This document shows positions 1,372-19,160 of a DNA stretch of 64,000 nt, piece after piece. The position numbers and the translations under genes are program-made. Location of the stretch: assembly GCA_963675755.2 (NCBI GenBank), contig CAXXMD010000003.1, positions 3,072,001 to 3,136,000 of the forward strand. Direction: 5' to 3'. Within the stretch, counting starts at the first letter, position 1. Each line of letters starts with the position of its first letter. The notes beneath the pieces were generated by a model. It did not search any database, was not told the DNA's origin, and was given only the letters and a program-made list of their open reading frames with translations. The DNA comes from a bacterium (lineage in GTDB: Bacteria > Zhuqueibacterota > Zhuqueibacteria > Residuimicrobiales > Krinioviventaceae).

Positions 1372-2733
1372 TTATACAATACCCTGGTCAATCATTGCAT
1401 CCGCAACCTTGAGAAAACCACCAATATTTGCACCATTTACATAATTGCCAGGAGTGCCAAATCTTTCGGCAACATCAACACAGGTTTTATGGATATTTTT
1501 CATGATCATATGCAAACGTTCGTCCACTTCTTTGCGTGTCCAGGGGAGGCGCATCGAGTTTTGTGTCATTTCAAGTCCGGAAACAGCAACACCACCGGCA
1601 TTGGCAGCTTTACCCGGTGCATAGAGCGCGCCCGCATCCAAAAATACTTTGACGCCATCAATGGTTGTGGGCATGTTTGCACCTTCACTGATTACATCAA
1701 CACCGTTCTTGAGCAGGTTTTCAGCATCTTTTTTATTGATTTCATTTTGTGTTGCACTTGGGAAGGCACAATCTGCTTTATGGTCCCAAAGTGGGTTATA
1801 ATCCAGGTTGTGGTCCAGATCGGTATAAACCGCGGTTTTATATTTATCAGCATATTCTTTAATTCTGCCGCGTCGTTGGTTTTTGAGATCCATAACAAAT
1901 TCAAGTTTTTCGCTGTCAATTCCTGCTTCATCATAAATATAACCATTTGAATCAGAAAGTGTAACAACTTTGCCGCCCAGCGCGATTACTTTTTCAGTGG
2001 TATATTGAGCTACATTACCTGAACCTGAAACCAGACAGATCTTTCCTTCAAGTGTTTGTCCTTTGGTTTCAAGCATTTCTGCTGCCATGTATACTGCACC
2101 ATAACCGGTTGCTTCGGGTCTTATCAGAGAGCCACCCCAATTCAGGCCTTTACCTGTAAGTACACCGGTGAATTCATTTTTGAGTTTTTTATATTGGCCA
2201 AAAAGAAAACCGATCTCGCGTCCGCCAACTCCAATATCACCTGCTGGTACATCCGTGTTTGGGCCAATATGACGGTAAAGTTCACTCATAAAGCTCTGGC
2301 AAAAACGCATTACTTCATTATCACTCTTGCCTTTGGGATCAAAGTCAGAGCCACCTTTGCCACCACCCAGTGGAAGCGAGGTAAGACTGTTTTTAAATAC
2401 CTGTTCAAAAGCCAGAAATTTTAAAATACTTAGATTTACAGATGGATGGAACCGGAGTCCGCCTTTATATGGACCAATTGCACTGTTCATTTCAATTCTG
2501 AATCCCCGGTTTATTTGCACTTCTCCCTGATCATCTACCCAGGGAACGCGGAACATGAGAACACGTTCCGGTTCTATGATTCTTTCAAATATTTTTACAG
2601 ATCGGTATTCCGGATAACGGTCATATACCAGCGCTACAGATTCAGCTACTTCTTCCACAGCTTGTAAAAATTCACTTTCATGCGCGTTCTTTGCTTTTAC
2701 ATCGCTCATCAGGGAATTGATAAAATCCGACAT
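1372..2733 (-). CDS. gdhA: NADP-specific glutamate dehydrogenase
   Basis: GPYKGGLRFHPSVN, GGGKGGSDFDPKGKS, DVPAGDIGVG, RPEATGYG, GSGNVAQY, KAANAGGVAVSGLEM. Confidence 0.97.
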   Translation of the reverse strand: MSDFINSLMSDVKAKNAHESEFLQAVEEVAESVALVYDRYPEYRSVKIFERIIEPERVLMFRVPWVDDQGEVQINRGFRIEMNSAIGPYKGGLRFHPSVNLSILKFLAFEQVFKNSLTSLPLGGGKGGSDFDPKGKSDNEVMRFCQSFMSELYRHIGPNTDVPAGDIGVGGREIGFLFGQYKKLKNEFTGVLTGKGLNWGGSLIRPEATGYGAVYMAAEMLETKGQTLEGKICLVSGSGNVAQYTTEKVIALGGKVVTLSDSNGYIYDEAGIDSEKLEFVMDLKNQRRGRIKEYADKYKTAVYTDLDHNLDYNPLWDHKADCAFPSATQNEINKKDAENLLKNGVDVISEGANMPTTIDGVKVFLDAGALYAPGKAANAGGVAVSGLEMTQNSMRLPWTRKEVDERLHMIMKNIHKTCVDVAERFGTPGNYVNGANIGGFLKVADAMIDQGIV

Positions 2734-3009
2734 GATAACCTCTTTATTATAATTTTCAAGATTTTTAGGAAAAGATGCAGAATATCATGTGGATTTACGG
2801 GAAAGATAAATTCAGCAGGGTACACTCTAATTGTGGATATATTAGAACCATAGCACCTGTTTTTAGTAACTACCTCGGTAGAGTATACAAAATTTATCAT
2901 TTCCTTGCAACCTTTTTTTGATTTTGTATGCAGTGAATTCAAATTTATTGTTTGCAACATTGTTTTAAATCTGTTACTTTAAAAGAAAATTATAATAAAA
3001 GGAGGGCCC

Positions 3010-4584
3010 ATGAAGAACCTGTTTGCGGGAATAGATAGCTCTACCCAGAGTACCAAATTACTTGTACTGGATCTTGATGAGAATAAAGTTGTACATGTGG
3101 ATGCAGTGAATTATGATAATGATTTACCTCAATATAATACCCGAAATGGTGTTGTTGTCAGTCAAACTGAAGGTGCATCCGAATCGGATCCCATGATGTG
3201 GGTAGAAGCTTTGAATATATTATTCGCGCGTTTACAGAAATCTAATGTTCCTCAACAAAATATTAAAGCGATCGCTGTTTCAGGGCAGCAACATGGTTTG
3301 GTTACCCTGGATGCAGAGGGTAACCTTACACGAAAAACCAGTAAATTGTGGAATGATTTCAGCACTCAGCAGGAATGTGATCTAATGACAAAAGCCGTCG
3401 GCGGGTTGGATGCCATGATTGAAGAGGTTGGTAACAGTCAACGCACGGGTTATACGGCAGCAAAGATTTTTCATATGGTTCGTAACGAACCGGAAGCTTT
3501 TGCAAAAACCACTACCTGTTTTCTGGTTCACAATTTTATCAACTGGTATCTCACAGGAGGCAAAGATGGTGGCGTTCGGGTGATGGAACCGGGAGATACT
3601 TCCGGAATGGCATTGTGGGACCCTAAAACCGGCAAATGGTCTGATAAAGTAATGAATGCCATTTCACCGGATTTAAAAAATAAAATTCCAGCTCTTGAAC
3701 CTGCTGATAAATCTATTGGATTTATTGGAAAAACACTTGCTGAGCAATATGGCTTTGATCCGGAATGCCGGATTGATGCCGGTTGTGGAGACAATATGTA
3801 TGGCGCGGTGGGCACCGGTAATGTAGAGCCGGGTATTGTAACGATCAGCCTGGGAACAAGTGGAACCGCTTATACCTTCCTGGATGAACCTTATATTGAT
3901 CCTACCGGTGAAATAGCAGCCTTTTGTGACAGCACCGGGCACTATTTACCTTTGTTATGTGTATCTAATCTGGCGAATGGATACAACGCAATTATTGACC
4001 AATTTAAATTAAGTCATAAAGAATTTGTAGATATTGTAAAAACGGTTCCGGTTGGAAATGAAGGGCGTATGCTGATTCCCTGGTATATGGGCGAACGTAC
4101 TCCGGATGTACCTCAGGCAAGTCCGGTTTATTTTGGTTTTGATTTAGATGATTTTACCAGAGAAAAATTGTGCAGAGCCGTATTAGAGGGGCATATATTA
4201 AATCTTTACGACGGTTTTAGAAAAATGCCGGTCAAGGCAAAAGAAATTCGGGTAACCGGAGGACTTGCTCAATCCGAAGCCTGGGTACAAACGATTGCAG
4301 ATGTATTTGAAGCAGAAGCTGTACCAGTTGAAGGTGAAGGTGCGGCATTGGGTGCAGCATTGCATGCAGCATGGGTATATGATAAGGAAAATGGTGGAAA
4401 TGCTTCTTTGAAAGATATAACAGAACCTTTTGTAATATTACGTGAAGAAAGACGCTGCAAACCTGTTCCTGAAAATGTGGATGTTTTTAGAGTACAAAAA
4501 TCCATGTTTTCTGCTCTAAGTCAACGTGTCAGGGGACACAATTCTAATGATGATCCTTTTGCTTTGCGAGCAAAATTGTTATAA
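3010..4584 (+). CDS. xylB: FGGY-family carbohydrate kinase, probable xylulokinase
   Basis: GIDSSTQSTK, SGQQHGLV, GDNMYGAVGTG, ISLGTSGT, GERTP, GAALGAA; RBS GGAGG at 3001. Confidence 0.85.
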   Translation: MKNLFAGIDSSTQSTKLLVLDLDENKVVHVDAVNYDNDLPQYNTRNGVVVSQTEGASESDPMMWVEALNILFARLQKSNVPQQNIKAIAVSGQQHGLVTLDAEGNLTRKTSKLWNDFSTQQECDLMTKAVGGLDAMIEEVGNSQRTGYTAAKIFHMVRNEPEAFAKTTTCFLVHNFINWYLTGGKDGGVRVMEPGDTSGMALWDPKTGKWSDKVMNAISPDLKNKIPALEPADKSIGFIGKTLAEQYGFDPECRIDAGCGDNMYGAVGTGNVEPGIVTISLGTSGTAYTFLDEPYIDPTGEIAAFCDSTGHYLPLLCVSNLANGYNAIIDQFKLSHKEFVDIVKTVPVGNEGRMLIPWYMGERTPDVPQASPVYFGFDLDDFTREKLCRAVLEGHILNLYDGFRKMPVKAKEIRVTGGLAQSEAWVQTIADVFEAEAVPVEGEGAALGAALHAAWVYDKENGGNASLKDITEPFVILREERRCKPVPENVDVFRVQKSMFSALSQRVRGHNSNDDPFALRAKLL

Positions 4585-5262: not shown

Positions 5263-7836
5263 TTAATCATTACTTGCTTGATAATTGGGGTGTTCTATAG
5301 TAATTCCTACTTTTTTTGTATATTCTTGTCCGCTGTTCAAATCTTTTATATTGATGATTAAATCATAAATACCAGTTTCCTGTTTTCCCACAGCCAGATT
5401 GAGATATATGCTTTCATCTCGACTTATACCTTGATAGTCAAATGCCGTTCCGGTTTGCCCGTCTTTTCCCAGCAGACTTTTAAAAAATCCATACAGTTTC
5501 TGTTCTTTAAGGTTTTCTATGGGACCAGCTGGTTTCAAGCTGCATTCTACATTGAAATGAGTTTTAAATTCATTGTTGAGAATTAAATTGTATATTTCAA
5601 AATAGATACCAATTGTAGCATTTGATGGATAAGCTGAAAACATGTGAGGTGTATAAGTGATATCATTTTTGGTGAATTTGGAATATTCGGTTTTTACTGT
5701 AATCGGATTGGATAAAATTACATCACTGGACAATAGTTGATTTGTATTATAGTTAACAATTTGAAGCGTGTCTCTATAAACACCGGTACGATGAGATAAA
5801 AGATCGGTGAATTGTAATTCATAAACATGAGAACCGGGTTTAATTGAAGTGCGGTCTAGTCTTACAGCTGAATTATATTTCCAGGCATCCGGTCTAACAT
5901 CTACCGGTACTTTTTCAGTTTTTTTGATTCTCACTGAAGGGTCCCAATTCCTGTCATACATACCTAAAAATGTTTTCAGATGCAATTCAGGGGGAGACTG
6001 GGAACGGTCCAGAACGGTTTGATTGCCTTCCAGTAGATAATAAAGCTCGAGATCGGTTTGATTGTTTTCACCTTTAAAACTTTTAAAGGTATAGGGAATG
6101 GTTAGTGGTTTTGAAATGTATCTATAATCAGAGCTTTCAGTTTGCAGTGCTGATTTTAGATCCTCAAGTGTTTCATTTTTGAATTCAACACACATACGTT
6201 TGACTTGTTCAATATCTGGCCTGTCCATAAAAGAGACTACACTTAATTGTCCGTATTTAGGATCAAGGTCTTCCCGGCCTGCCGGTGCATACGGTATGGC
6301 TTCTATAACCCATCCCAGAAATCCACCGTATTTTTTGAAATGGAAAATCATTTCGGGGCGGGTATCGGTTTTGAAATATTTCCAACTCAGGTTCATTGGA
6401 AGGTTATCAAAATATTCTTTACGATATAAACTTTCACCCAGGTCAGCTCTGGGAACACGTGGAGCACCAACTGCCATTTGGGCTTCGTCATCGGGTGATT
6501 CGTTCAGTCTTCTGGCAATTTCTCCTGAATTCGCGCTGATACCTCCAACGATGTGACGCATTGCTGCATCATATTCATCCTGTTTTTTTAGACGCCATGA
6601 AATATATTCTTCAGAAATAATATTTGGCATTCCATCCATTGATCTAGCCTGATCATCCGGGAATCCATGGCGTATAAAAATGAGCCCTAGATCGTCCAAA
6701 TCCCGTTCACTGTTGATGACAGCTTGAGGAAAACCTGCTGCTTCGAGCATTTTTGAACCCTGAATATTGTAATTGGCAAAAGGATGTAAATCCTGATAGG
6801 CTACTTCATTGAACCTGTTACTCAACATGTATCTGCGATAGTTTTTTTGAGCAAATGAAAGCCTGCGATAATGTTCTCCAATTCTTTCGTTTTCCAGAGT
6901 AGCATAATTGGGGTCCCGAACATTCCAAAAGCGTTTGTAAAAAATTGGCAGGTCCTGGAGACGGGTGTTTTGTAACTTGTCATGCTCTTTATCTGTTAAA
7001 AGGTAACTGAGATCTTTATAGACTTCAATTACTGTTGTGCTGTCTTGAAGGTTTTCAATAGCTTTCCAATAGTGTTTTAATCCCTTTGCATCATCCTGCA
7101 TATTGAAATAGTTTCTGGCTAAAAGCAGATCAAGCATACTTGTAGAATAATCCGGGAATTTTTTTTGAGTTTCTAATAACTGATCCAGACTGAGCTGGTA
7201 ATGTCCTGCAGCAAAATGGACATGAGCAAGGTTTAAATAATACTGGGGATTATCCGGATTTTTCTCTATCAAATAATTGATGGTTTCGATAATGTTTTCA
7301 TTATCTTGCATCCATAACGCTATTTCAAGGAATTGCTGGAAAATTTCCTGATTGTCAGGATTGTGTCGAATGGCTTTGTTGTATAATTTTAGGGTTTGTT
7401 CCGGCATATCTAATAGTTTATTGGCATTGCCTATTTCAAGCCATGCATCCGAAATAGTGGGATCATATATGACTGCTTTTTCAAAATAATCGCGGGCTTT
7501 GATAATGCGCTTGGGTCGATGTTTGTAGACCATACCCATTTGATAATATGCGCGTGCATATTCCCTGTCAAGTTGAGTCGTCTTTCGGAACTCGTTCAAA
7601 GCATCCCTGCCTGCGGGATTTTTTGAATAATAAACCATACCCATGCCATAATGCGCCTGTGCAATATCGTTATCCTTGTCCAGGATAGACTTGAACAGTT
7701 TTTCTGCTTCTTTTAATTCTTTTTTGTAGACATGTGTCATCCCCTGTTCGAATAATGGCTGCCACCAAAGATCAGCTTCTGATGCAGACAAAACTGTAGA
7801 CAAAATGATTACTGCCAAACCAGTAATATATTTCAA
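5263..7836 (-). CDS. Secreted TPR-repeat + GWxTD-domain protein
   Basis: Signal peptide; TPR repeats (AQAHYGMGMVY, ARAYYQMGMVY, SDAWLEIG); FWNVRDPNYATLENERIGEHYRRLSFA and DDLGLIFIRHGFPD match the GWxTD core; C-terminal Ig-like beta domains (IGIYFEIYNL). Confidence 0.8.
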   Translation of the reverse strand: MKYITGLAVIILSTVLSASEADLWWQPLFEQGMTHVYKKELKEAEKLFKSILDKDNDIAQAHYGMGMVYYSKNPAGRDALNEFRKTTQLDREYARAYYQMGMVYKHRPKRIIKARDYFEKAVIYDPTISDAWLEIGNANKLLDMPEQTLKLYNKAIRHNPDNQEIFQQFLEIALWMQDNENIIETINYLIEKNPDNPQYYLNLAHVHFAAGHYQLSLDQLLETQKKFPDYSTSMLDLLLARNYFNMQDDAKGLKHYWKAIENLQDSTTVIEVYKDLSYLLTDKEHDKLQNTRLQDLPIFYKRFWNVRDPNYATLENERIGEHYRRLSFAQKNYRRYMLSNRFNEVAYQDLHPFANYNIQGSKMLEAAGFPQAVINSERDLDDLGLIFIRHGFPDDQARSMDGMPNIISEEYISWRLKKQDEYDAAMRHIVGGISANSGEIARRLNESPDDEAQMAVGAPRVPRADLGESLYRKEYFDNLPMNLSWKYFKTDTRPEMIFHFKKYGGFLGWVIEAIPYAPAGREDLDPKYGQLSVVSFMDRPDIEQVKRMCVEFKNETLEDLKSALQTESSDYRYISKPLTIPYTFKSFKGENNQTDLELYYLLEGNQTVLDRSQSPPELHLKTFLGMYDRNWDPSVRIKKTEKVPVDVRPDAWKYNSAVRLDRTSIKPGSHVYELQFTDLLSHRTGVYRDTLQIVNYNTNQLLSSDVILSNPITVKTEYSKFTKNDITYTPHMFSAYPSNATIGIYFEIYNLILNNEFKTHFNVECSLKPAGPIENLKEQKLYGFFKSLLGKDGQTGTAFDYQGISRDESIYLNLAVGKQETGIYDLIINIKDLNSGQEYTKKVGITIEHPNYQASND

Positions 7837-7969: not shown

Positions 7970-8545
7970 TCAAGGAGTTGTGTATGATGGCTCTGTGGGT
8001 TCTGTGACGGCCATGTCACGTTCCCAACCACTGTATTGTAATACAAGGGATTCTATTGCAATTTCGTTTGAATTGGCATCAAACTCGGTTACTGGACTGT
8101 ATTGTGCCGGCCAGCAGTTATAAACCTTGAAGGCCATAACAGTTTGTCCTGCTTCATTCAGCAATTCAATTATTATATCTTTTTTATATTCAGCCTGGGG
8201 TGTACTTGAATTGTTATTCCAGACCTGGGTTGCCCATTGTTCAAAGGATGTATCATGAGTGCGGCCCCGCTCAAGTAAAAGAGGCTGAACAGTTGTTTTT
8301 CCCGGCACCTGTTTAACTGTACCGTTTTTGTCATTTCCTGATTTATAAACCATGATTTGAGTTTCCCGGTGCAAGCCACTGATATGGAAAATTCCGGGTA
8401 TATATTTTCCGTCCCATTTTACTCTGAATTTACTGCGATTATAAGGATTTGTTCGGTGTGTATTTACAGCAAACTCGATTGCAATTGATGAACCTGCTAT
8501 TATAAATATTAAAAAGATTATTGATACAATTCTATTTTTTTTCAT
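7970..8545 (-). CDS. Phage/eCIS tail tube protein (T4 gp19 / Afp1-like) with N-terminal Sec signal peptide
   Basis: FAVNTHRTNPY..KFRVKWDGKYIPG, PGKT...LLLERGRTHDTSFEQWA, KKDIIIELLNEAGQ...FKVYNCWP, DANSNEIAIESLVL..GWERD..VTEPTEPS; signal MKKNRIVSIIFLIFIIAGSSIA; RBS AGGAG. Confidence 0.88.
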   Translation of the reverse strand: MKKNRIVSIIFLIFIIAGSSIAIEFAVNTHRTNPYNRSKFRVKWDGKYIPGIFHISGLHRETQIMVYKSGNDKNGTVKQVPGKTTVQPLLLERGRTHDTSFEQWATQVWNNNSSTPQAEYKKDIIIELLNEAGQTVMAFKVYNCWPAQYSPVTEFDANSNEIAIESLVLQYSGWERDMAVTEPTEPSYTTP

Positions 8546-8569
8546 AATGAACTCCTGATTTTCAATATA

Positions 8570-9106
8570 TTATCGAATACTGAGGTCACGTTCCCAGCCT
8601 TCATGTTCCAGAACCAGAATTTCCATTGCTTCATCACTACTGTTTTTTTCCAGTTTGGTCAAGGGAACATATTTTGAAGGCCAGCATTTGTAAACCATAA
8701 AAGCCATCAAGGTTCTGCCCGTATTGTCTATCAGTTCAATAATAATATCTTTACGAAAATCTCTCAAAGAGACTTCTGATCCCAATCCGCTGCCCACATA
8801 GCTGACTTTATTTGCCCATTTTTCAAATTCATTGTCCATTGAGCGAGGTCTTTTAAGAACAATGGGTTGATACTCGGTCTGTCCGGGTGCCCTTTGTGCA
8901 GTATTGGGACTTGCTCCATTACGATATTCAATGACCTCGGTTGTTCTTACCAGATCACTAACAAATGAAACATCAGGAATAACCTTTCCATCCCATTTGA
9001 CATGGAAATCGACCTGTACATTCCCGGTTGATGGTGGTTGAGCGGATGAATTAAAAAATAAAGTGAATATAAAGAAGGTTAATAGAATGAATTTTACTTG
9101 TTTCAT
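8570..9106 (-). CDS. Phage/eCIS tail tube protein paralog (gp19 / Afp1-like) with Sec signal peptide
   Basis: FHVKWDGK, RTTEVIEYRNG, PGQTEYQPIVLKR, EFEKWANKV..GSGLGSEVSLRDFRKDIIIEL, VYKCWPSKY, LEHEGWERD; signal MKQVKFILLTFFIFTLFFNSSA|Q; RBS AGGAGG. Confidence 0.88.
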   Translation of the reverse strand: MKQVKFILLTFFIFTLFFNSSAQPPSTGNVQVDFHVKWDGKVIPDVSFVSDLVRTTEVIEYRNGASPNTAQRAPGQTEYQPIVLKRPRSMDNEFEKWANKVSYVGSGLGSEVSLRDFRKDIIIELIDNTGRTLMAFMVYKCWPSKYVPLTKLEKNSSDEAMEILVLEHEGWERDLSIR

Positions 9107-9183
9107 AATTTCCTCCTGATTTGTTATAACTATAAACCCTTGTTATTGCGAATTTATTCTAAATCAGGATATGGTTTTTATTA

Positions 9184-9528
9184 TCAATAAAAGATGAGCA
9201 GGGTCACAAAGAGAAAGAGTTTTAGCAAATTTATTAAATGTAATGGATAATTAAAGCAGAATGTAACCTCGGGTTTTGTTTTCCATTCAATAAAACGCCA
9301 TAGATGGGTAATAATCAGTATGAGGAATAGTATTTTGGTAGCCGAGGGCGTTTCATTCAACATCAAATAAATGAGCAATATAGAAAAGATGATATCTGAA
9401 ATTCCCAGAATAATATTTTTGACCGTGGCCCATAACGTACGCTTCAAGATTACGAGTTTGAGTAACAAGAGAGATGATTCTCCCCCGAGAAGAATTGTAG
9501 TGATTACTATTAGTAAAGAATATCGCAA
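9184..9528 (-). CDS. Small hypothetical integral membrane protein (about 4 TM)
   Basis: Hydrophobic ORF; TTG at 9528, directly after the upstream stop, is a more likely start than 9594. Confidence 0.6.
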   Translation of the reverse strand: MRYSLLIVITTILLGGESSLLLLKLVILKRTLWATVKNIILGISDIIFSILLIYLMLNETPSATKILFLILIITHLWRFIEWKTKPEVTFCFNYPLHLINLLKLFLFVTLLIFY

Positions 9529-9529
9529 A

Positions 9530-10306
9530 TTATTTTTTCCGTGTAAAAAGCAACCCGGACCAGATATTATCAATAGAGCATATTTTATAATCAACCAGGC
9601 CGGCAGCTAGTCCTGTATTGCGTATCAGGGTTTGTGTTAAATCGGTTTTTACCCCCGATGATTTTTTAGGCCAGGCGATCCACAGTTTTTTTTCTCCGTA
9701 TTTCTGGCTGATTGCTGCAATTTGCTCTTCCAGGTCAGCCATGCTGTTGAGAAACCAAAGGGTGACATCACCCTGAGCGTTCCCTGAGGATTGCATTCTG
9801 GCACCAACGGGGAGCTGAGGGGCAAGCATGTCTTTAAAACCTTCAGGTTCATTTAACAGCGTAACAACAGAGTCTGGTTTGATACCGAGTTTTTTAGGAA
9901 GGGGGGTACCCGAATAGGCGGCCATTACAGATTCCGGCACAACAGGGGCCGCGGGAGGAGATTCTATTGCCTGTTTAAGAGCATTTTGAATATGCTCCCA
10001 TTCCGTATAAACGGCATCGGGTAAAATGGATTGGGTTTTTAAAACTTTGTCTGGTTCTCCTTCAACAAATACGAGAGGCATATTACGTGTGTTTTTATAA
10101 CTTCTGAAACCAATTGCTACATCCCGGCCTACTGATGGTTTGCGTGAAAGATCAATAACCATTATATCCGGAGGATCATCACGCAATTGTCTCATGCTCT
10201 TGTTGTCCAGCGGACCTGATGCTACCTGGTAACCCAAAGATTGTAGTATTTCTGATAAAGATACTGCTTTTTCAGCATCCCAATGTAAAAGATAAATTGA
10301 ATACAT
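9530..10306 (-). CDS. Receiver-like domain fused to DUF3052 domain
   Basis: N-terminal PPDIMVIDLSRKPSVGRD...MPLVFV is REC-like; C-terminal YSGTPLPKKLGIK...LWIAWPKKSSGVKTDL...GLVDYKICSID..WSGLLF is DUF3052-like. Confidence 0.75.
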   Translation of the reverse strand: MYSIYLLHWDAEKAVSLSEILQSLGYQVASGPLDNKSMRQLRDDPPDIMVIDLSRKPSVGRDVAIGFRSYKNTRNMPLVFVEGEPDKVLKTQSILPDAVYTEWEHIQNALKQAIESPPAAPVVPESVMAAYSGTPLPKKLGIKPDSVVTLLNEPEGFKDMLAPQLPVGARMQSSGNAQGDVTLWFLNSMADLEEQIAAISQKYGEKKLWIAWPKKSSGVKTDLTQTLIRNTGLAAGLVDYKICSIDNIWSGLLFTRKK

Positions 10307-13298: not shown

Positions 13299-16200
13299 TT
13301 ATGGTTTTAAAAATATTAAAGCATCTATATTGTTTTTTAAACCAAAATGGGTCTCAAAATTCAATTCTCCATCAAGTTCGAGTGTTTGTTGAGGTAAAGT
13401 GTCTGATAGTGATATTTCAATCTGCTTTTTTTCATTTGGCTTGATATCGTCAATTGTAAAATTACCCGATATTCCTTTGAATGCTATTACAGGATTTCTT
13501 AAGGTGAATGCTCTTTTATTTTGTATTTCTAAAACGACTTTTTGATCTTTATATGAAATCAGTTTTACCGCAGCATCAGCGTGAAATTGTTTGAATGCGT
13601 CAGCCATGGGCTGCCTGATCTCAAATCTTGAGTTGATGTCAATCAAACCCGGATGATGTTCTGGTACGTCGGTCAGTTTGTAAAATGTGCCACCTGCCAT
13701 ACCCTTGTCTAATCCCCATTGGCCCATGCCCCAAATGGCATCAAGCCCGGTTAACTCGTCCGGTCCCCAAAAACTGTTATATTCGGTATAAATAACCGGC
13801 AAGTTGTGTTCAAATCCCAGGTTTATACTTGTTTCAATAATGGGTTGTCTATCTGTGGATTTCTGAAACAATCCAAAATAGTAATTAATACCCATAATAT
13901 CCTGTCCCCGCCAGTTATCCTGACCGTATAGATTGGCATAATTTACCGGACGATTGTACGGATCATAGATTTTGTATGCAGGATAAACCGTAAGAAGGAA
14001 TTCATCCAAATTACTATGAATTTCATTGCAGGAATTCCAAAACAAAACGCCGGCATTGTCCTTGTACGCATTTACGAATTGGCGACTCACTTCCTGAATA
14101 CCTGCAAGGGGGGAACCATTGTAACGGGTAAATATTTCTTCTGATGATGCACACGAAAAATCGGCCAAAGCCATCCAGCACATGTTTTCTTCAAATGCCA
14201 GGTCAACAAGCCAGGTATTGGGATGGTCACCACGTAATGTGTTAAATCCGCATTCTTTGAGGATCTCCATTGCTTTTTTAGAGAGTGCCCGACTCGATCC
14301 CCATAAACCATGAACGTTAACACCTTTCATGATAAAAGGTTCACCATTGACCAGGATATCGGTTCCCTGTGTTTCTGCTACAGTAGATATTATTCGCTTG
14401 TCATAATGAACAGGGCCGTTATTCGTCTTTAATTCAAAATGCAGATCATAATATCCCCAGTTTGGGGTGGGTTGGAGCGTTGTTTGGGCTTTATCGGAAA
14501 GAGTGGTTTGGACTAGTTCTTTTTCATTAGTTGAAACGGTAATTTCAGTAGAATTAATTTTTGTTTTACCTGCTAAAAGATTGATGTCTATTGGGGTAGT
14601 AAATGTTGAACCCGATTTTTCAACATGATTGTGTCGTTTAACAAGTATTGCCATCTTGTTAGGCAATGCGATCGTTTCTTCTTTTTCTGTCATTGTCAGG
14701 ACGCTACCATCTTTGATGATACGTACCCTGGAAATCAGTTTGCCATACTGATGGATGTTATAATCCAGGCTGATTTGATTTTTCCCATGTTTTAATGATA
14801 TTTCCGGAAAGCTTGAAAATACAATATTGCCAGTCTCTGTTTGAACATCGAAAGCACAAATTGCATCAAGAGTGTTCTCACCATAATGGGTAACGTCTAT
14901 GGTACAGTGTGTTTGGTTTGTATTTTTATCCCACTCGGTTACCAGGGCGTTGATCTCGATTAGCCGCGCAGTTATATAAACCGGGCACAGGGTGTATAGC
15001 CTGCCTGTATTGAAATAGTTAATGGATTCAGGATTGTTTAAAAGTACCCATTGAAATGGACCTTTTTTCGTAGTATCCCTAACAGTAACAGTAAGGTAAT
15101 GCTTGCCTGTAAATATTTTGGGCATATGGATCGCGGCAGTAGCATCCAATGGTGTTTGCAGAGGAAGTGAAAATGTTATGTTTTGTAAATGGGAACCGGG
15201 TTTCCATGTTGAGGTGGCAGGGGCAGGATTGATAATCTCTGTTTGCAGTATCTGTCCATATTCATTGCAAATGTGATACATGAACTGTAAATCTTGATTG
15301 ATGGTAGAGCCTGTTACATTCCATGGTACAGATAGCGTGTAATCTTTACCCATTACAAATGATGTGCTCGAGTGGGAAATATCCCCAAATTGCAGGCTGT
15401 AGGTGCCATCGTGCTGTTGACCATGATATAAATTATCAGCCGAGTTTACAAGCTGTTCTGCATAATCAACTGCTTGATAAGTAGCTTTTTGCTCCCCCTG
15501 ATCCAGTCGTTCTTTTGCCAACCCAAGTAATGAGAGGGCACTTGAGTAAGCAGTTTTTTTCTTGAGCGTTTGAGGATCATTTAAATTCGCATTTTTTGAG
15601 TTTAGAAAGGATTCCATTTGTGTAGACAATTTGTTGATTTTGGCTTCCAGTTCTTTATTTGACCGGTATTCGATGGTTCGCTCATCAGATCCAAGCTGGC
15701 TGCCGTCAGAATGGGTTAATTCAATTTGCAGGGTATAGTGACCTTCATTCCGGATTTGTAATGGAGATTGGGCCAGAATTTCTTTCAATGGGAGTGTGAA
15801 TGACCCGGAAGGAATATTTTGGGATGTTTTAAATTTTAGAGTTTTGTTGTTATGTTTGAGTGAAATTAATATTTCACAATTTTGCACTGCTTTTTGAAAG
15901 TTTGTATACAGATTAAATTCGGGGAGCGATTTGTTCAAAATAATGTGCTTGGGAGTGGATAAAAAGACTGTTGGCGGGGTAATGGTTACATCTTTATCTG
16001 ATGATATAAAATGTGCTATCCTTGCATAACCTGACCAGCATCTAACTCCATAACGGCCTTGCAGACTGTTGTCGCTCTTTGCCTGAATGACCCATTCTTT
16101 GGGTTCCTGTTCAGTGACAGACCAGAACTTGCAGTAAATATTTTCTCCATCCAGCTTTACTTTTTGCCAGAACCAACCGGTTGGATTCCATTTGGTATCA

Positions 16201-16670
16201 AAGGTCAATCCTTTTCCCGCAGCCAGATCAAAAGTATAATCATCTATTGAGGCATCACGGTAACGTAAACTAGTACCCGAGTCTTCATCCTGTTCTATCC
16301 AGTATTGTGGACGTCTTTCTTTGGTATTGTGGTAATATTCAACGTCTTGAGGAAAATCAGCTCTGAACATCAATATTCCGTCAGCATCTCTTTCAGTTGG
16401 AAGCGGATCTTTCCATAATACCTGAATATAACCATTTGCCATCTGTTGGGATTTTGCAAACAGTATAATATTTTTACCTTTAAATTCAATAACCTGTTTC
16501 CCATAACCCGGCGGGACTGATGGGTCATCAACAATTTCTGCCTGACCGTCACCGGCCATATCCAGGACTTGCCAGTCATCTAATGATTCACAGTTTGATT
16601 CAAATTCTGCATGTACAAAGGATGAATAGAACAAGATTAAAATGATAAAAACGTATCGGTTCTTGAGCAT
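13299..16670 (-). CDS. Large secreted protein with C-terminal GH2-like (clan GH-A) TIM barrel
   Basis: Signal peptide; ILVNGEPFIMKGVNVH, GFNTLRGDHP, FWNSCNE (acid/base), IYTEYN (nucleophile). Confidence 0.75.
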   Translation of the reverse strand: MLKNRYVFIILILFYSSFVHAEFESNCESLDDWQVLDMAGDGQAEIVDDPSVPPGYGKQVIEFKGKNIILFAKSQQMANGYIQVLWKDPLPTERDADGILMFRADFPQDVEYYHNTKERRPQYWIEQDEDSGTSLRYRDASIDDYTFDLAAGKGLTFDTKWNPTGWFWQKVKLDGENIYCKFWSVTEQEPKEWVIQAKSDNSLQGRYGVRCWSGYARIAHFISSDKDVTITPPTVFLSTPKHIILNKSLPEFNLYTNFQKAVQNCEILISLKHNNKTLKFKTSQNIPSGSFTLPLKEILAQSPLQIRNEGHYTLQIELTHSDGSQLGSDERTIEYRSNKELEAKINKLSTQMESFLNSKNANLNDPQTLKKKTAYSSALSLLGLAKERLDQGEQKATYQAVDYAEQLVNSADNLYHGQQHDGTYSLQFGDISHSSTSFVMGKDYTLSVPWNVTGSTINQDLQFMYHICNEYGQILQTEIINPAPATSTWKPGSHLQNITFSLPLQTPLDATAAIHMPKIFTGKHYLTVTVRDTTKKGPFQWVLLNNPESINYFNTGRLYTLCPVYITARLIEINALVTEWDKNTNQTHCTIDVTHYGENTLDAICAFDVQTETGNIVFSSFPEISLKHGKNQISLDYNIHQYGKLISRVRIIKDGSVLTMTEKEETIALPNKMAILVKRHNHVEKSGSTFTTPIDINLLAGKTKINSTEITVSTNEKELVQTTLSDKAQTTLQPTPNWGYYDLHFELKTNNGPVHYDKRIISTVAETQGTDILVNGEPFIMKGVNVHGLWGSSRALSKKAMEILKECGFNTLRGDHPNTWLVDLAFEENMCWMALADFSCASSEEIFTRYNGSPLAGIQEVSRQFVNAYKDNAGVLFWNSCNEIHSNLDEFLLTVYPAYKIYDPYNRPVNYANLYGQDNWRGQDIMGINYYFGLFQKSTDRQPIIETSINLGFEHNLPVIYTEYNSFWGPDELTGLDAIWGMGQWGLDKGMAGGTFYKLTDVPEHHPGLIDINSRFEIRQPMADAFKQFHADAAVKLISYKDQKVVLEIQNKRAFTLRNPVIAFKGISGNFTIDDIKPNEKKQIEISLSDTLPQQTLELDGELNFETHFGLKNNIDALIFLKP

Positions 16671-16936: not shown

Positions 16937-19075
16937 TTATTTAATCATAACCATTTTTTTTGAATATGTGTGTAATGCGGTTTGAGTTTTAATGTTTACC
17001 TGATAAAAGTAAACTCCCGAACTCGATACTTTACCGTTATAGTTTGTTCCATTCCAGGTATTTTGGTGATACCCGGCATTCAACTGTGAATTATTCAAAC
17101 AGTTTACTTTTCTTCCGTTAATGTCATAAATGTTTATTTCAACATTCGCTTTTTCATCCAATTGAAAGGATATACGGGTTTGTGCGTTAAAAGGATTGGG
17201 ATAATTTTGATTTAGAATAAATCCATCAGGAACAGGATTGGATTTGCTATTGATTGCCAATGTAGGGTCTTTTTCAAAAATGGTGAAAATACCGGTATCG
17301 TCCCGGATGATGAGTTCATCTGAACCATCATTATAAATGTCATAAAATGTGGGGACATATTCTCCATAATAATCAATATTAACAAAGGCATCATTCCAAC
17401 GGGCCCAGGCGGGGGATTGGGCATTGCCAATGTTTTCAAAGGCATACAATGAATCCGTAGCACTGTATTTAACAATCATATCAAAATCACCATCCTGATC
17501 CAGATCGCTGAATGTAGAGTAATGGAAAACGGTGTTTGGCAGTCCTTGTTTCCAGTCCTGTCTTAATTTCCAGGTAGAATCCGGATCTTGTGTATTTTCA
17601 TAAAAATGATACGCGCTGGGATAATTGTAATTTTCTTCACCAATGTCCATGACTGTTTTTTCGCGGAAAATAAAATCAAGGTCACCATCGTTATCCAGAT
17701 CATAAAAGTTAATGTCCAGAAACAGGGTGCTGTCAAACTGGCTAAAGATCATATCATTTAAACTGGTTTTGCTGGTCCATTCGCCGCTCAGGTCCGGTTT
17801 CGAGTTTTCATAAACATTTGTATAACTGTAATACATGTAATGATGTGTGTAAATAAATTCGGGCAGGCCATTATTGTCAAAATCTGTCAACTGGTCTTTG
17901 TAAGAGTCTCCTTCCGTATAAGTGGTAAACTCTGTTTCTGAGGGCGTGTGTTTGTAGAATAAGCAGTTCATCAGCGTATCTGGTGTGAGGCGAACGGGTT
18001 TTAGCCCAAATTCTATCCAACCTCTATAACCATTGACAAAAAGTAAAGATGGAAAGCGATTATTCAATTGAAATGGATAAATTCTTGAGAATGGTAAAGC
18101 AGGTAAAGAATTCAATACATAATAATTGGGATCAAAGGGCTGCTCTGCATTACCAGTGGCTAAATAAATACGACAAACGCGTTTCCCATCAATGACAAAT
18201 AAATCCTTTTTCCCATCTTTATTATAATCATAAGGGAAAATGGAATTGATGGTATCATTGATCTCAATATTTGGCAAATTTTGTTCATTTGAAAAGTTGA
18301 ATCCGTTTGAATCCTGTCTGCCATAAAATAATTTAATTTTGTAAATACCTTCTGTAATACTGATAATCAGCATATCAACCAGACTGTCGTTGTTTACATG
18401 CATCATGGTTGGAGAGATGTATTCATAGCTCAATGTGTTTTTTGTAGCATTTTGTAAAACGGTCGAGTCTTTTTCCCAAGCAGGTTCGCTTGCATTACCA
18501 ATATTTCTAAAAAAGGATAAATTTAGTACTCCAAGTCCTATATAGCTATTATTCACTAGCAAGTCTAGATCTCCATCGGAATCTATATCAAAGAAAGATG
18601 GATTGTCTGGTGTATACGAAGCTATTTCAAAACTAACATCTTTGAATGTATCCGGATTAAGGGTCAAGGTTAGTGTGCTGTCAATTTCCCAGTCATACAG
18701 TTCTGTGGCATCTCTGATGATTATATTCGGATTACCATCTGCATCAATATCCTGGATTGTAAAGCCCATATTACCTATGCAGCCTTCAATTCTTGTTTCA
18801 TATATTTTATCGGGTAGATAATATGGGGGTGTTTCTGTGTCTTGTCCTAAAAAGATTTGGAGTTTTCGCCAAGTCCAATCTTTATGTTTCCCTAAAATTG
18901 CCAAATCCGTAATACCATCCTTATTAAAATCACAAGGTGCCATAGCATTAACGAAAATATCTAACCCCGATGGATTCAACGGGCGGGTGTCAGCCATCCA
19001 GTGGATGGGTACAGCAAAAAGATTGAAATTCAGGATTAAAATAATAATTTGAAAAAGGTGTTTTGAATTAATCAT
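16937..19075 (-). CDS. Secreted FG-GAP/VCBS repeat beta-propeller with C-terminal T9SS type A/FlgD-Ig domain
   Basis: Repeated DxDxDGDxD (DIDSDGDLDLL, DLDNDGDLDFI, DLDQDGDFDMI); LNQNYPNPFN...IYDINGRKV...SSGVYFY. Confidence 0.85.
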   Translation of the reverse strand: MINSKHLFQIIILILNFNLFAVPIHWMADTRPLNPSGLDIFVNAMAPCDFNKDGITDLAILGKHKDWTWRKLQIFLGQDTETPPYYLPDKIYETRIEGCIGNMGFTIQDIDADGNPNIIIRDATELYDWEIDSTLTLTLNPDTFKDVSFEIASYTPDNPSFFDIDSDGDLDLLVNNSYIGLGVLNLSFFRNIGNASEPAWEKDSTVLQNATKNTLSYEYISPTMMHVNNDSLVDMLIISITEGIYKIKLFYGRQDSNGFNFSNEQNLPNIEINDTINSIFPYDYNKDGKKDLFVIDGKRVCRIYLATGNAEQPFDPNYYVLNSLPALPFSRIYPFQLNNRFPSLLFVNGYRGWIEFGLKPVRLTPDTLMNCLFYKHTPSETEFTTYTEGDSYKDQLTDFDNNGLPEFIYTHHYMYYSYTNVYENSKPDLSGEWTSKTSLNDMIFSQFDSTLFLDINFYDLDNDGDLDFIFREKTVMDIGEENYNYPSAYHFYENTQDPDSTWKLRQDWKQGLPNTVFHYSTFSDLDQDGDFDMIVKYSATDSLYAFENIGNAQSPAWARWNDAFVNIDYYGEYVPTFYDIYNDGSDELIIRDDTGIFTIFEKDPTLAINSKSNPVPDGFILNQNYPNPFNAQTRISFQLDEKANVEINIYDINGRKVNCLNNSQLNAGYHQNTWNGTNYNGKVSSSGVYFYQVNIKTQTALHTYSKKMVMIK

Positions 19076-19160
19076 GATACTTCCCCCTATCAAAATTAAA
19101 AATGGTGTTGTTATTAATAGTTAATAATAATTGTAAATAAAGTCAACATTTTTTTGAAAT

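What the first reader, a model, noticed from the sequence alone, without database searches (positions are those of the whole stretch)
7970..9106. Two orphan contractile-tail tube proteins carrying Sec signal peptides: a possible exported tube/filament system
Seen: two tandem genes, each with its own strong RBS (AGGAGG, AGGAG). Each encodes a 22-aa signal peptide (basic N-terminus, hydrophobic core, SSA|Q or SIA|I) fused to a complete tube domain (FxVKWDG, PGxT, FExWA, KDIIIEL, VYxCWP, GWERD). No sheath, baseplate, VgrG/spike, PAAR, Afp15-type ATPase or capsid gene occurs anywhere in the 64 kb. Established: gp19/Afp1/Afp5/Hcp-fold tube proteins form stacked hexameric rings, assemble in the cytoplasm without signal peptides, and are normally encoded beside a sheath gene. 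Inference: these are domesticated tube proteins exported by Sec that polymerise in the periplasm or outside the cell as a sheath-less nanotube, filament, conduit or cargo carrier. I know of no described system of this kind.
Basis: partly seen in the sequence, partly recalled or inferred. Interest (0 to 1): 0.9.

Follow-up and report, generated by a model that had tools for sequence, protein, structure and literature searches.

The report
Sec-exported orphan phage-tail tube protein pair
Two neighbouring genes encode phage-tail "tube" proteins that carry export signals and have no sheath, baseplate or spike anywhere in the genome, and they belong to a large undescribed family, so a piece of an injection machine seems to have been re-used as a stand-alone protein of the cell envelope.

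Summary
On the minus strand lie gene B (8570-9106, 178 aa) and, 24 nt downstream, gene A (7970-8545, 191 aa). Both are PF06841/TIGR02241 tube proteins. Each has a 22-residue N-terminal signal-peptide-like segment that must be translated: the next in-frame start is codon 58 (A) or 90 (B).

The signal is a family trait. Of 205 homologues examined, 165 carry it (114 A-type, 51 B-type). Position -1 is Ala in 97 of 118. The segment is 19% identical between homologues, against 64% for the mature part.

The 98%-complete genome has no sheath, gp25, Baseplate_J, spike, PAAR or T6SS sheath. The B-then-A pair recurs in other genera and metagenome contigs with unrelated neighbours. One origin of the exported clade from cytoplasmic eCIS tubes is not rejected.

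Both genes are under purifying selection (dN/dS 0.21 and 0.13). A-type proteins keep nearly all tube-conserved positions. The best reading is Sec export to the periplasm of ring- or tube-forming subunits that work without a sheath. Assembly and function remain untested, because the structure tool was off. Five literature searches found no description.

The parts
8570..9106 (-). Gene B: 178-aa exported tube paralogue. It lacks the N-terminal F-x-V-N-x-x-R-F-D-P-Y-K strand and the C-terminal E-P-x-E-P-S-F-T-E-P tail of A-type and cytoplasmic tubes.
   Evidence: ORF. PF06841 1.7e-29 and TIGR02241 91.6 bits. All 51 B-type homologues examined carry a signal peptide. B-type is one clade, SH-aLRT 86.
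9041..9106 (-). Signal peptide of B (codons 1-22), predicted cleavage SSA|QPP
   Evidence: Direct reading plus script. 5 of the 16 amino-acid differences from the sister genome fall in these 22 residues.
9112..9117 (-). Shine-Dalgarno AGGAGG, 5 nt before B's ATG
9107..9210 (-). About 100 nt upstream of B that is conserved with the sister genome, while sequence further upstream is not; the likely promoter region of the two-gene operon
   Evidence: Pairwise alignment. A sigma-70-like match lies at 9209-9180, but this is a consensus match only.
7970..8545 (-). Gene A: 191-aa exported tube paralogue with the full-length tube architecture
   Evidence: ORF. PF06841 1.2e-37 and TIGR02241 127.8 bits. 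114 A-type homologues carry a signal peptide.
8480..8545 (-). Signal peptide of A (codons 1-22), predicted cleavage SIA|IEF. The cleavage point falls where cytoplasmic homologues have their Met1-Ala2.
   Evidence: Alignment A1, script. 6 of the 12 amino-acid differences from the sister genome fall here.
8552..8556 (-). Shine-Dalgarno AGGAG, 6 nt before A's ATG, inside the 24-nt B-A spacer

Best explanation
A and B form an autonomous two-gene operon. It encodes Sec-exported, signal-peptidase-I-processed descendants of the inner-tube protein of extracellular contractile injection systems (the Cis1/Afp1 lineage of PF06841). They belong to a widespread clade in which the tube protein has been uncoupled from sheath, baseplate and spike.

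Shown here:
- family membership;
- obligatory translation of the N-terminal hydrophobic segment;
- conservation of signal-peptide architecture, but not sequence, across 165 homologues;
- absence of contractile-machine genes from the genome;
- recurrence of the B-then-A cassette in unrelated gene neighbourhoods;
- purifying selection.

Inferred:
1. Both proteins cross the inner membrane unfolded through Sec and are cleaved after Ala22.
2. They stay in the periplasm, because they have no T9SS sorting domain, no lipobox and no beta-barrel.
3. Mature A still forms hexameric rings that stack into a sheath-less tube, because it keeps nearly every position conserved in sheath-associated tubes.
4. B, which lost both terminal extensions, co-assembles as a specialised end ring (cap, initiator or anchor).

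The cellular role is open; candidates are a structural element of the envelope, a conduit or a carrier. My odds are about 0.85 for export, about 0.55 for ring or tube assembly, and about 0.25 for B acting as an end ring.
For: Family: Pfam and NCBIfam scores are above cut-off. The profile's best solved relatives are CIS inner tubes: AlgoCIS 7adz at 1e-20, Anabaena tCIS 7b5h at 1.1e-20, Afp1 at 6.6e-8 and Pvc1 at 7.8e-8.

Signal peptide:
- No alternative start exists, and a Shine-Dalgarno site sits at the right distance.
- In 118 A-type homologues, position -1 is Ala in 97 and is small (A/G/S/T) in 116.
- 96% have a net positive charge in the first 10 residues, and the median length is 26 residues.
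- Identity is 0.19 in the signal region against 0.64 in the first 60 mature residues.
- All 51 B-type proteins have the signal.
- Cleavage falls exactly where cytoplasmic homologues begin.

Orphan status:
- The own genome has only two gp19 matches and no sheath, gp25, Baseplate_J, Phage_base_V, PAAR, VipB or Phage_GPD.
- Sheath was found in 0 of 5 pair-bearing genomes, while the search does find the sheath in control genomes G003 and G046.
- A sheath lies in the locus of 0 of 5 exported-type loci, against 75 of 97 main-type cytoplasmic loci.

Cassette:
- B lies upstream of A in 9 of 9 loci that hold both genes (WIN, L015-L018, L021, L120, L121, L123).
- A groups with A and B with B across loci, and no other gene is shared between loci of different genera.

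Selection and origin:
- dN/dS is 0.21 (A) and 0.13 (B) against the sister genome.
- Mean pairwise identity is 0.69 (exported A), 0.67 (exported B) and 0.75 (cytoplasmic).
- 66 columns are at least 90% the same residue in both exported A and cytoplasmic proteins. Only 4 columns conserved in cytoplasmic proteins are relaxed in exported A.
- A tree with all exported rows on one side of a branch is not rejected. It scores 30.2 log-likelihood units better than the quick free tree, p-AU 0.82.

Destination: a neighbouring protein carries Por_Secre_tail, whereas A and B carry only the tube domain.
Against: - No dedicated signal-peptide predictor, structure model or experiment supports cleavage, localisation or assembly.
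- An uncleaved signal anchor would fit the hydrophobic segment almost as well.
- Retained conservation could reflect constraints other than self-assembly.
- Tube proteins normally need a baseplate hub and a tape measure to start polymerising (general knowledge of contractile tails, recalled). The genome shows neither.
- Singleton A-type genes without B exist (L023, L059), so B is not needed everywhere.
- 2 of 5 other genomes with exported tubes do have sheath genes on other contigs, so 'never with a contractile system' does not hold.
- The tree is a quick one, its backbone is unresolved, and the outgroup branches are long.
- The window's own A is a divergent member: stem branch 0.48, and a 4-residue shorter loop.
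Confidence: 0.55

Rival explanations
1. Envelope decoy or exclusion factor. The exported tube proteins do not build a structure of their own. They sit in the periplasm and bind the tip, tube end or tape measure of incoming contractile phages, tailocins, eCIS or T6SS, and so block injection.
For: The distribution is patchy (6 of 41 genomes of the order) and the neighbourhood is always different, as is typical of accessory genes. Tube-conserved positions are almost fully retained although the cell has no sheath of its own, as expected of a mimic. A B-type subgroup has a Cys-containing, lipobox-like end of the signal (P0153, P0154, P0164, P0180, L120). This recalls lipoprotein exclusion factors, which is a resemblance recalled from memory, not tested.
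Against: No PADLOC family matches A, B or two neighbouring genes. The neighbours I looked at are transporters, housekeeping and secreted enzymes, not defence genes. None of the 10 classifiable hits among 12 viral contigs is an exported form, so this is not a phage-borne exclusion gene. GC content equals that of the surrounding window (0.39 against 0.38).
Confidence: 0.15
2. Periplasmic Hcp-like ring acting as chaperone or carrier. A and/or B form single hexameric rings, not tubes, that hold a client protein in the lumen.
For: The proteins share a family with ring-forming tube proteins. B has lost both terminal extensions, which would fit a non-stacking ring. That T6SS Hcp rings chaperone effectors is established knowledge, recalled here.
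Against: No conserved neighbouring gene could be the client. No fusions of exported forms to other domains were found: 3 long proteins turned up, none exported.
Confidence: 0.1
3. Uncleaved signal anchor. The N-terminal segment is a type-II membrane anchor, so the tube domains are tethered to the outer face of the inner membrane rather than released.
For: The hydrophobic cores are 12-13 residues long and preceded by Lys/Arg. No predictor or experiment shows cleavage.
Against: Position -1 is Ala in 97 of 118 and small in 116 of 118, and -3 is mostly A/S/V/G. That pattern has no reason to be kept in an uncleaved anchor. The cores are short for a transmembrane helix.
Confidence: 0.1
4. Decaying remnant of a lost eCIS or prophage, or a gene-calling artefact.
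For: No other contractile-system gene remains in the genome.
Against: The frames are intact with Shine-Dalgarno sites. dN/dS is 0.13-0.21. 165 homologues share the architecture. The cassette is conserved across genera and families.
Confidence: 0.02

Closest known systems
eCIS inner tube proteins (Cis1/Afp1/Pvc1/Alg1; Pfam PF06841, TIGR02241)
   Same: Same sequence family. The exported clade averages 0.65 (A-type) and 0.57 (B-type) identity to cytoplasmic 170-176-aa tubes. In 75 of 97 loci with at least 2.5 kb upstream, those tubes have a sheath gene in the locus, usually directly upstream. Solved relatives are 7adz, 7b5h, 6rao and 6j0b.
   Different: A Sec signal peptide replaces Met1. The locus has no sheath, baseplate, spike, PAAR or tape measure, and the sheath, baseplate, spike and PAAR families tested are absent from the whole genome. 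The genes stand alone as a two-gene cassette. Scores are far below the NCBIfam CIS1/CIS5 equivalog cut-offs.
Afp5/Pvc5/Cis5 tube-initiator paralogue of eCIS
   Same: It is a second, shorter tube-like paralogue encoded beside the main tube, as B is beside A.
   Different: B is not a Cis5 orthologue. It nests with the Cis1-like A and cytoplasmic group as one clade, scores only 28.3 bits on CIS5_fam, and is exported.
T6SS Hcp (TssD)
   Same: A homologous ring-forming tube subunit that ends up outside the cytoplasm (general knowledge, recalled).
   Different: Hcp has no signal peptide and leaves the cell by sheath contraction. The genome here has no VipB/TssC.
Orphan cytoplasmic tube genes seen here (L022, L024, L082, L124, L127 and others)
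   Same: They are the nearest non-exported relatives, share the K-Q-F variant of the N-terminal motif, and also lack a neighbouring sheath (0 of 6). The three genomes tested (G047-G049) had no PF04984.
   Different: They have no signal peptide, no B-type partner, and presumably a cytoplasmic location.

Membership tests
PF06841 Phage_T4_gp19 / TIGR02241 tube protein family | Profile score above the curated cut-off over the whole domain | tested here: met
   A 129.1 bits and B 102.7 bits against 28.2. TIGR02241: A 127.8 and B 91.6 against 62.4.
NCBIfam CIS1_fam / CIS5_fam equivalogs (eCIS inner tube / tube adaptor) | Score above the equivalog cut-off (220 / 260 bits) | tested here: not met
   CIS1_fam: A 55.9, B 43. 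CIS5_fam: A 60, B 28.3.
Extracellular contractile injection system (eCIS) or contractile prophage tail | Sheath gene (Phage_sheath_1) in the locus or genome | tested here: not met
   None in the own genome, in 5 of 5 pair-bearing genomes, or in 10 of 10 exported-type loci. Positive controls G003 and G046 were found.
Extracellular contractile injection system (eCIS) or contractile prophage tail | Baseplate and spike genes (GPW_gp25, Baseplate_J, Phage_base_V, Phage_GPD, PAAR) | tested here: not met
   No match in the 98%-complete genome. The list of core domains is taken from a passage of bioRxiv 10.1101/2020.09.22.308684. DUF4255 and the AAA ATPase were not searched.
Type VI secretion system | TssC/VipB sheath | tested here: not met
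   No PF05943 match.
Sec/SPase-I signal peptide | Positive n-region, 7-15-residue hydrophobic core, small residues at -3 and -1, features kept across homologues without sequence identity | tested here: met
   Own script, not SignalP. Position -1 is Ala in 97 of 118 and small in 116 of 118; 96% are positively charged; identity is 0.19 against 0.64 for the mature part. 165 of 205 homologues carry the signal.
Sec/SPase-I signal peptide | Actual cleavage and periplasmic location | not testable with these tools
   Needs N-terminal sequencing or cell fractionation.
Tat signal peptide | Twin-arginine S/T-R-R-x-F-L-K motif in the n-region | tested here: not met
   The n-regions are MKKNR and MKQVK. 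By eye, no conserved RR motif appears in the alignments. The consensus motif is recalled.
Bacterial lipoprotein (SPase II) | Lipobox ending in Cys at +1 | tested here: not met
   Neither signal in the window contains Cys. A B-type subgroup elsewhere has ...L-G-C, often with D/E at -3, which is atypical; for those the result is inconclusive.
T9SS cargo | C-terminal sorting domain (Por_Secre_tail / CHU_C) | tested here: not met
   Only PF06841 was found, ending 16 (A) and 6 (B) residues before the C-terminus. The neighbour at 16937-19093 does carry the sorting domain.
Ring- or tube-forming assembly | Hexameric rings that stack | tested here: inconclusive
   The only evidence is indirect: 66 columns at least 90% identical in residue with sheath-associated tubes, and only 4 relaxed.

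The most novel reading that the evidence does not exclude
A new kind of envelope structure: a sheath-less nanotube or filament that assembles in the periplasm from two Sec-exported tail-tube paralogues. A would be the polymerising subunit and B the end ring or anchor. The structure arose once from an eCIS tube gene, needs no baseplate, tape measure or ATPase, and now occurs in several mostly uncultured phyla (labels seen: KSB1, Calditrichia, Eisenbacteria, Latescibacterota, Rhodothermales).
Probability: 0.4. Interest if true: 0.9.

Novelty: new variant of a known kind. Interest (0 to 1): 0.78.

Why it matters
As far as I know, every characterised contractile-tail derivative (phage tails, tailocins, eCIS, T6SS) assembles its tube in the cytoplasm on a baseplate and inside a sheath. 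This finding is a conserved clade of tube proteins that leaves the cytoplasm through Sec and has no sheath. If confirmed, it would be a new route by which a phage part is taken over by the cell.

If the proteins assemble, they would form a self-organising protein nanotube in the periplasm that needs only one or two small genes. That would interest envelope biologists and people who engineer protein tubes.

There is also a warning for annotation. Some public gene calls start at an internal Met inside the signal (for example P0025, against the full ORF in L016). Source names, where a source gives one, read "phage tail protein" or "phage tail-like protein". Both habits hide the feature.

Tried and rejected
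No fold search was therefore possible.

Complex prediction with mature A (23-191) and mature B (23-178), both as alignments: the first request did not complete because the machine was busy. The same request was then accepted, collected unfinished and collected finished. The result was no verdict (score 0.14, mark 0.32, controls not run). It counts neither for nor against binding.

The look-up of sequencing runs listed 7 holders in 3 studies and no RNA holder. I have nothing on expression, and read laying was not used because contigs cannot show it.

The 'longer' protein search found 3 fusions (AAA, sheath C-terminal domain, one unnamed), none of an exported form. They look like cytoplasmic eCIS genes or merged gene calls.

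The Protein Atlas only returned ordinary PF06841 clusters. PADLOC gave nothing for A or B. PHROGs gave only 'tail tube protein'.

PF19266 (CIS_tube) had no match in the genome, but the control genomes did not ring either, so that blank says nothing.

I looked by eye for a shared promoter motif upstream of B in six loci and saw none. The promoter and terminator scan gave counts near its shuffled background (13 against 7.5 ± 2.8, and 1 against 1.4).

I looked for conserved neighbours of the cassette. The only recurring similarity was the T9SS sorting domain of unrelated large secreted proteins, so I rejected it as a link.

I did not run the search of protein representatives. At 50% clustering, exported and cytoplasmic forms (0.65 identity) would probably fall into the same clusters.

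Rows dropped:
- For the tree I took every 3rd exported A-type, every 2nd B-type, every 2nd non-exported protein and every 3rd cytoplasmic-type locus, 109 rows in all. Sequences were cut to start 4 residues before the V-K-W motif.
- P0025, P0074 and P0120 were scored as exported because their gene calls start inside the signal.
- In one search, P0025, P0074, P0120 and P0122 were left out.

Supplementary files of papers were closed. Lists of eCIS loci or orphan genes in the supplements of the surveys could bear on the claim that this has not been described.
Full report
WHAT IS THERE. On the minus strand of the window lie two ORFs 24 nt apart. Gene B is at 8570-9106 (178 aa). Gene A is downstream of it at 7970-8545 (191 aa). 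Each ATG follows a Shine-Dalgarno site: AGGAGG 5 nt before B's ATG and AGGAG 6 nt before A's. Both proteins match Pfam PF06841 (Phage_T4_gp19). A scores 1.2e-37 over residues 39-175 and B scores 1.7e-29 over residues 31-172. Both also match NCBIfam TIGR02241 above its cut-off. They stay far below the equivalog cut-offs of the eCIS models CIS1_fam and CIS5_fam. PHROGs calls both 'tail tube protein'. A profile of the family finds solved CIS inner tubes as its best relatives: AlgoCIS 7adz at 1e-20, Anabaena tCIS 7b5h at 1.1e-20, then Afp1, Pvc1, Afp5 and Pvc5.

THE SIGNAL PEPTIDES ARE REAL FEATURES OF A FAMILY. Each protein starts with two or three basic residues, then a 12-13-residue hydrophobic core, then S-x-A. 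The predicted cleavage sites are SIA|IEF in A and SSA|QPP in B. No other in-frame ATG, GTG or TTG exists before codon 58 (A) or codon 90 (B). Both lie inside the tube domain, so a complete domain cannot be made without the hydrophobic segment.

The stronger argument is comparative. Two homologue searches (the best 120 of each) gave 205 distinct proteins. By a simple rule, 114 are A-type with a hydrophobic N-terminal extension, 51 are B-type (all with one), 39 are A-type without one, and one is a fragment. At least three of the 39 are gene calls that begin at a Met inside the signal. P0025, for example, is the same gene as the full ORF in L016.

In 118 A-type proteins with at least 15 residues ahead of the F-x-V-N motif:
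- position -1 is Ala in 97 and is small (A/G/S/T) in 116;
- position -3 is mostly A, S, V or G;
- 96% carry a net positive charge in the first ten residues;
- the median length is 26 residues.

The segment is only 19% identical between homologues, against 64% for the first 60 mature residues. Shape is conserved without sequence, which is how signal peptides evolve. The cleavage point sits where the cytoplasmic relatives have Met1-Ala2 (alignment A1). Between this genome and its sister genome, 6 of 12 (A) and 5 of 16 (B) amino-acid changes fall in the 22 signal residues. I had no SignalP. No twin-arginine motif and no Cys occur in the two signals, so Sec with signal peptidase I is the reading.

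THEY ARE ORPHANS. The genome (6.48 Mb, 3 contigs, 98% complete) has just these two gp19 matches. It has no match to:
- Phage_sheath_1
- GPW_gp25
- Baseplate_J
- Phage_base_V
- PAAR
- VipB
- Phage_GPD

These are most of the eCIS core domains listed in a passage of bioRxiv 10.1101/2020.09.22.308684. DUF4255 and the AAA ATPase were not searched. The same sheath search finds the expected genes in control genomes G003 and G046.

Among 41 genomes of the same order, the tube query hits 7. G000, G001, G017, G023 and G025 hold the pair. G002 holds one copy, found at the end of the locus fetched for it. G003 holds a classical eCIS locus. Only G003 has a sheath. Exported tubes were thus found in more of the genomes searched in this order than contractile systems were.

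Of five further genomes with exported tubes, three have no sheath. Two (G043, G045) have sheath genes on other contigs. So absence of a contractile system is usual but not a rule.

A CONSERVED CASSETTE IN CHANGING SURROUNDINGS. Nine loci hold both genes: the window, L015-L018, L021 and the metagenome contigs L120, L121 and L123. In all nine, B lies directly upstream of A. A groups with A and B with B across loci. No other gene is shared between loci of different genera.

Eight further A/B pairs in the protein tables share the same longest-contig length. That suggests they lie on the same contig, but this is an inference. One of the eight is L016.

Single A-type genes without B also exist: L023, and L059, which has 10 kb of flank on each side.

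The roughly 100 nt upstream of B are conserved with the sister genome while sequence further upstream is not. This fits a promoter belonging to the pair. GC content equals that of the window (0.39 against 0.38).

Source labels of homologues name candidate division KSB1, Calditrichia/Calditrichaceae, Eisenbacteria, Latescibacterota, Syntrophaceae, Rhodothermales and a 'Thermotogae' MAG. A same-family genome of the window's organism is labelled KSB1: the L016 contig has the same length as the longest contig listed for P0025 and P0146.

WHERE THE CLADE COMES FROM. The nearest non-exported relatives are 170-176-aa tubes that start M-A-Q-F-x-V-N. In loci with at least 2.5 kb upstream, a sheath gene is in the locus in 75 of 97 of the main (mostly K-N-F) type. 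It is in 0 of 6 of the K-Q-F type closest to the exported clade, and in 0 of 5 exported loci. Counted without the flank filter, the figures are 53 of 74 and 0 of 10. Of 12 viral contigs, 10 could be classified and none is exported; 11 of the 12 hold a sheath.

In a quick maximum-likelihood tree of 109 rows, B-type is one clade (SH-aLRT 86). The cytoplasmic forms lie on one side of a branch (94) apart from one pair. The A-type backbone is unresolved, and the exported/cytoplasmic state needs 2 changes. Holding all cytoplasmic rows plus the outgroup together gives a tree 30.2 log-likelihood units better than the free quick tree, with p-AU 0.82. One origin of the exported clade is therefore not rejected, but it is not proven either.

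B is not a Cis5/Afp5 orthologue. It is a duplicate within this lineage. It lost the 14-residue N-terminal strand and the 11-12-residue C-terminal tail, and gained a variable, often Pro-rich linker.

A plausible order of events is: loss of linkage to the sheath, then gain of a signal, then the A/B duplication. The order itself needs a rooted, careful tree.

ARE THEY STILL TUBE-FORMERS? I have no direct evidence. The structure predictor was off and the single complex job gave no verdict. Indirectly, both genes are under purifying selection: dN/dS is 0.21 and 0.13, against 0.02-0.10 for five neighbours.

Exported A-type proteins are about as conserved among themselves (0.69) as cytoplasmic tubes are (0.75). 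66 alignment columns are at least 90% the same residue in both groups. Only 4 columns conserved in cytoplasmic tubes are relaxed in the exported ones, and none has switched residue. A small protein in which almost every surface stays constrained after losing its sheath partner is what a self-assembling subunit would look like. A mimic of foreign tubes would look the same, so the decoy rival stays open.

WHERE DO THEY GO? Sec export puts them in the periplasm. This organism labels surface proteins with T9SS C-terminal sorting domains, as in the FG-GAP protein at 16937-19093. A and B end right after the tube domain and have no lipobox.

COMPARISON WITH WHAT IS KNOWN. The proteins are members of the tube family, but they are not part of any eCIS, T6SS or prophage tail by the defining features tested.

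Five full-text searches found no paper that describes tube proteins with Sec signals or exported orphan tubes:
- tail tube / signal peptide / contractile injection
- tube protein / Sec signal peptide / eCIS
- the family accessions
- periplasmic / exaptation / orphan
- KSB1 / Calditrichota / CIS

In the papers I opened, 'signal peptide' refers to the N-terminal loading signal of eCIS cargo (passages of PMC12210884). Two eCIS surveys do not contain the words 'signal peptide' or 'orphan' in their main text (passages only, supplements closed).

One preprint notes a gp19-domain protein as the most abundant member of one of its protein clusters in the extracellular proteome of Accumulibacter granules (bioRxiv 10.1101/2024.11.06.622250, passages). 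It does not say how the protein leaves the cell.

VERDICT. The feature is real, conserved and widespread, and I found no description of it. It is a tube protein of the contractile-injection lineage that has been given a Sec signal and freed from the rest of the machine, here as a two-paralogue operon. Export is well supported by sequence. Assembly and function are inferences.

Interest is 0.78. Novelty: a new variant of a known kind. There is a 0.4 chance that it is a new type of periplasmic nanotube.

Noticed in passing
L022, L024, L082, L124, L127 (K-Q-F type); L047, L080, L086 and others (K-N-F type): Cytoplasmic (signal-less) tube genes that stand alone. 0 of 6 K-Q-F-type and 22 of 97 other loci with at least 2.5 kb upstream have no sheath in the locus. 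The three genomes tested (G047-G049) had no PF04984, though their completeness is unknown. Orphan tube genes seem common and deserve their own look.
   Followed up: partly
L049:10548-11081, L093:10539-11099, L139:10487-11002, L143:3356-4000, L151:4518-5123, L153:5122-5712: Six sheath-less cytoplasmic tube loci share a downstream 171-214-aa partner with an F-Q-Y-N-P-E motif. One of them hits Pfam CIS_tube below threshold (0.00097). This may be a second kind of sheath-less two-gene tube module.
   Followed up: partly
L161:~430-965: A K-N-F-type (otherwise cytoplasmic-type) tube gene has a signal-like N-terminus (basic start, 16 hydrophobic residues...G-A|K-F) on a 2.1-kb metagenome contig. This may be an independent gain of export.
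   Followed up: no
P0153, P0154, P0164, P0180; L120:~2600-3142: A B-type subgroup ends its signal with ...L-G-C followed by W-H-P-P-G-P-P. This may be a lipoprotein version, but D/E at -3 in several members is atypical for a lipobox.
   Followed up: partly
window 9184-9594 (-): A 136-aa hydrophobic ORF lies just upstream of B and overlaps the end of the 258-aa gene. It has no Pfam hit and no counterpart in the sister genome, where this stretch is not alignable. It is probably not a gene.
   Followed up: partly
window 5263-7836 (-): An 857-aa protein lies 133 nt downstream of A. It has an N-terminal hydrophobic, signal-like start, TPR repeats and a GWxTD domain (TIGR04514, 3.2e-10). It is next to the pair only in the same genus, so it is probably unrelated.
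   Followed up: partly
window 9530-10306 (-): A 258-aa protein has no Pfam family and only a faint PhoB-receiver-like N-terminus (E 0.0096). It is conserved in the sister genome at 91%.
   Followed up: no
P0025, P0074, P0120 (public gene calls): Some public annotations start these genes at a Met inside or after the signal peptide. This hides the export signal; source names, where given, read 'phage tail protein' or 'phage tail-like protein'.
   Followed up: yes
window 16937-19093 (-), 13299-16670 (-): An FG-GAP protein with a T9SS sorting domain and a 1123-aa GH2-like protein show that the organism has T9SS cargo.
   Followed up: yes
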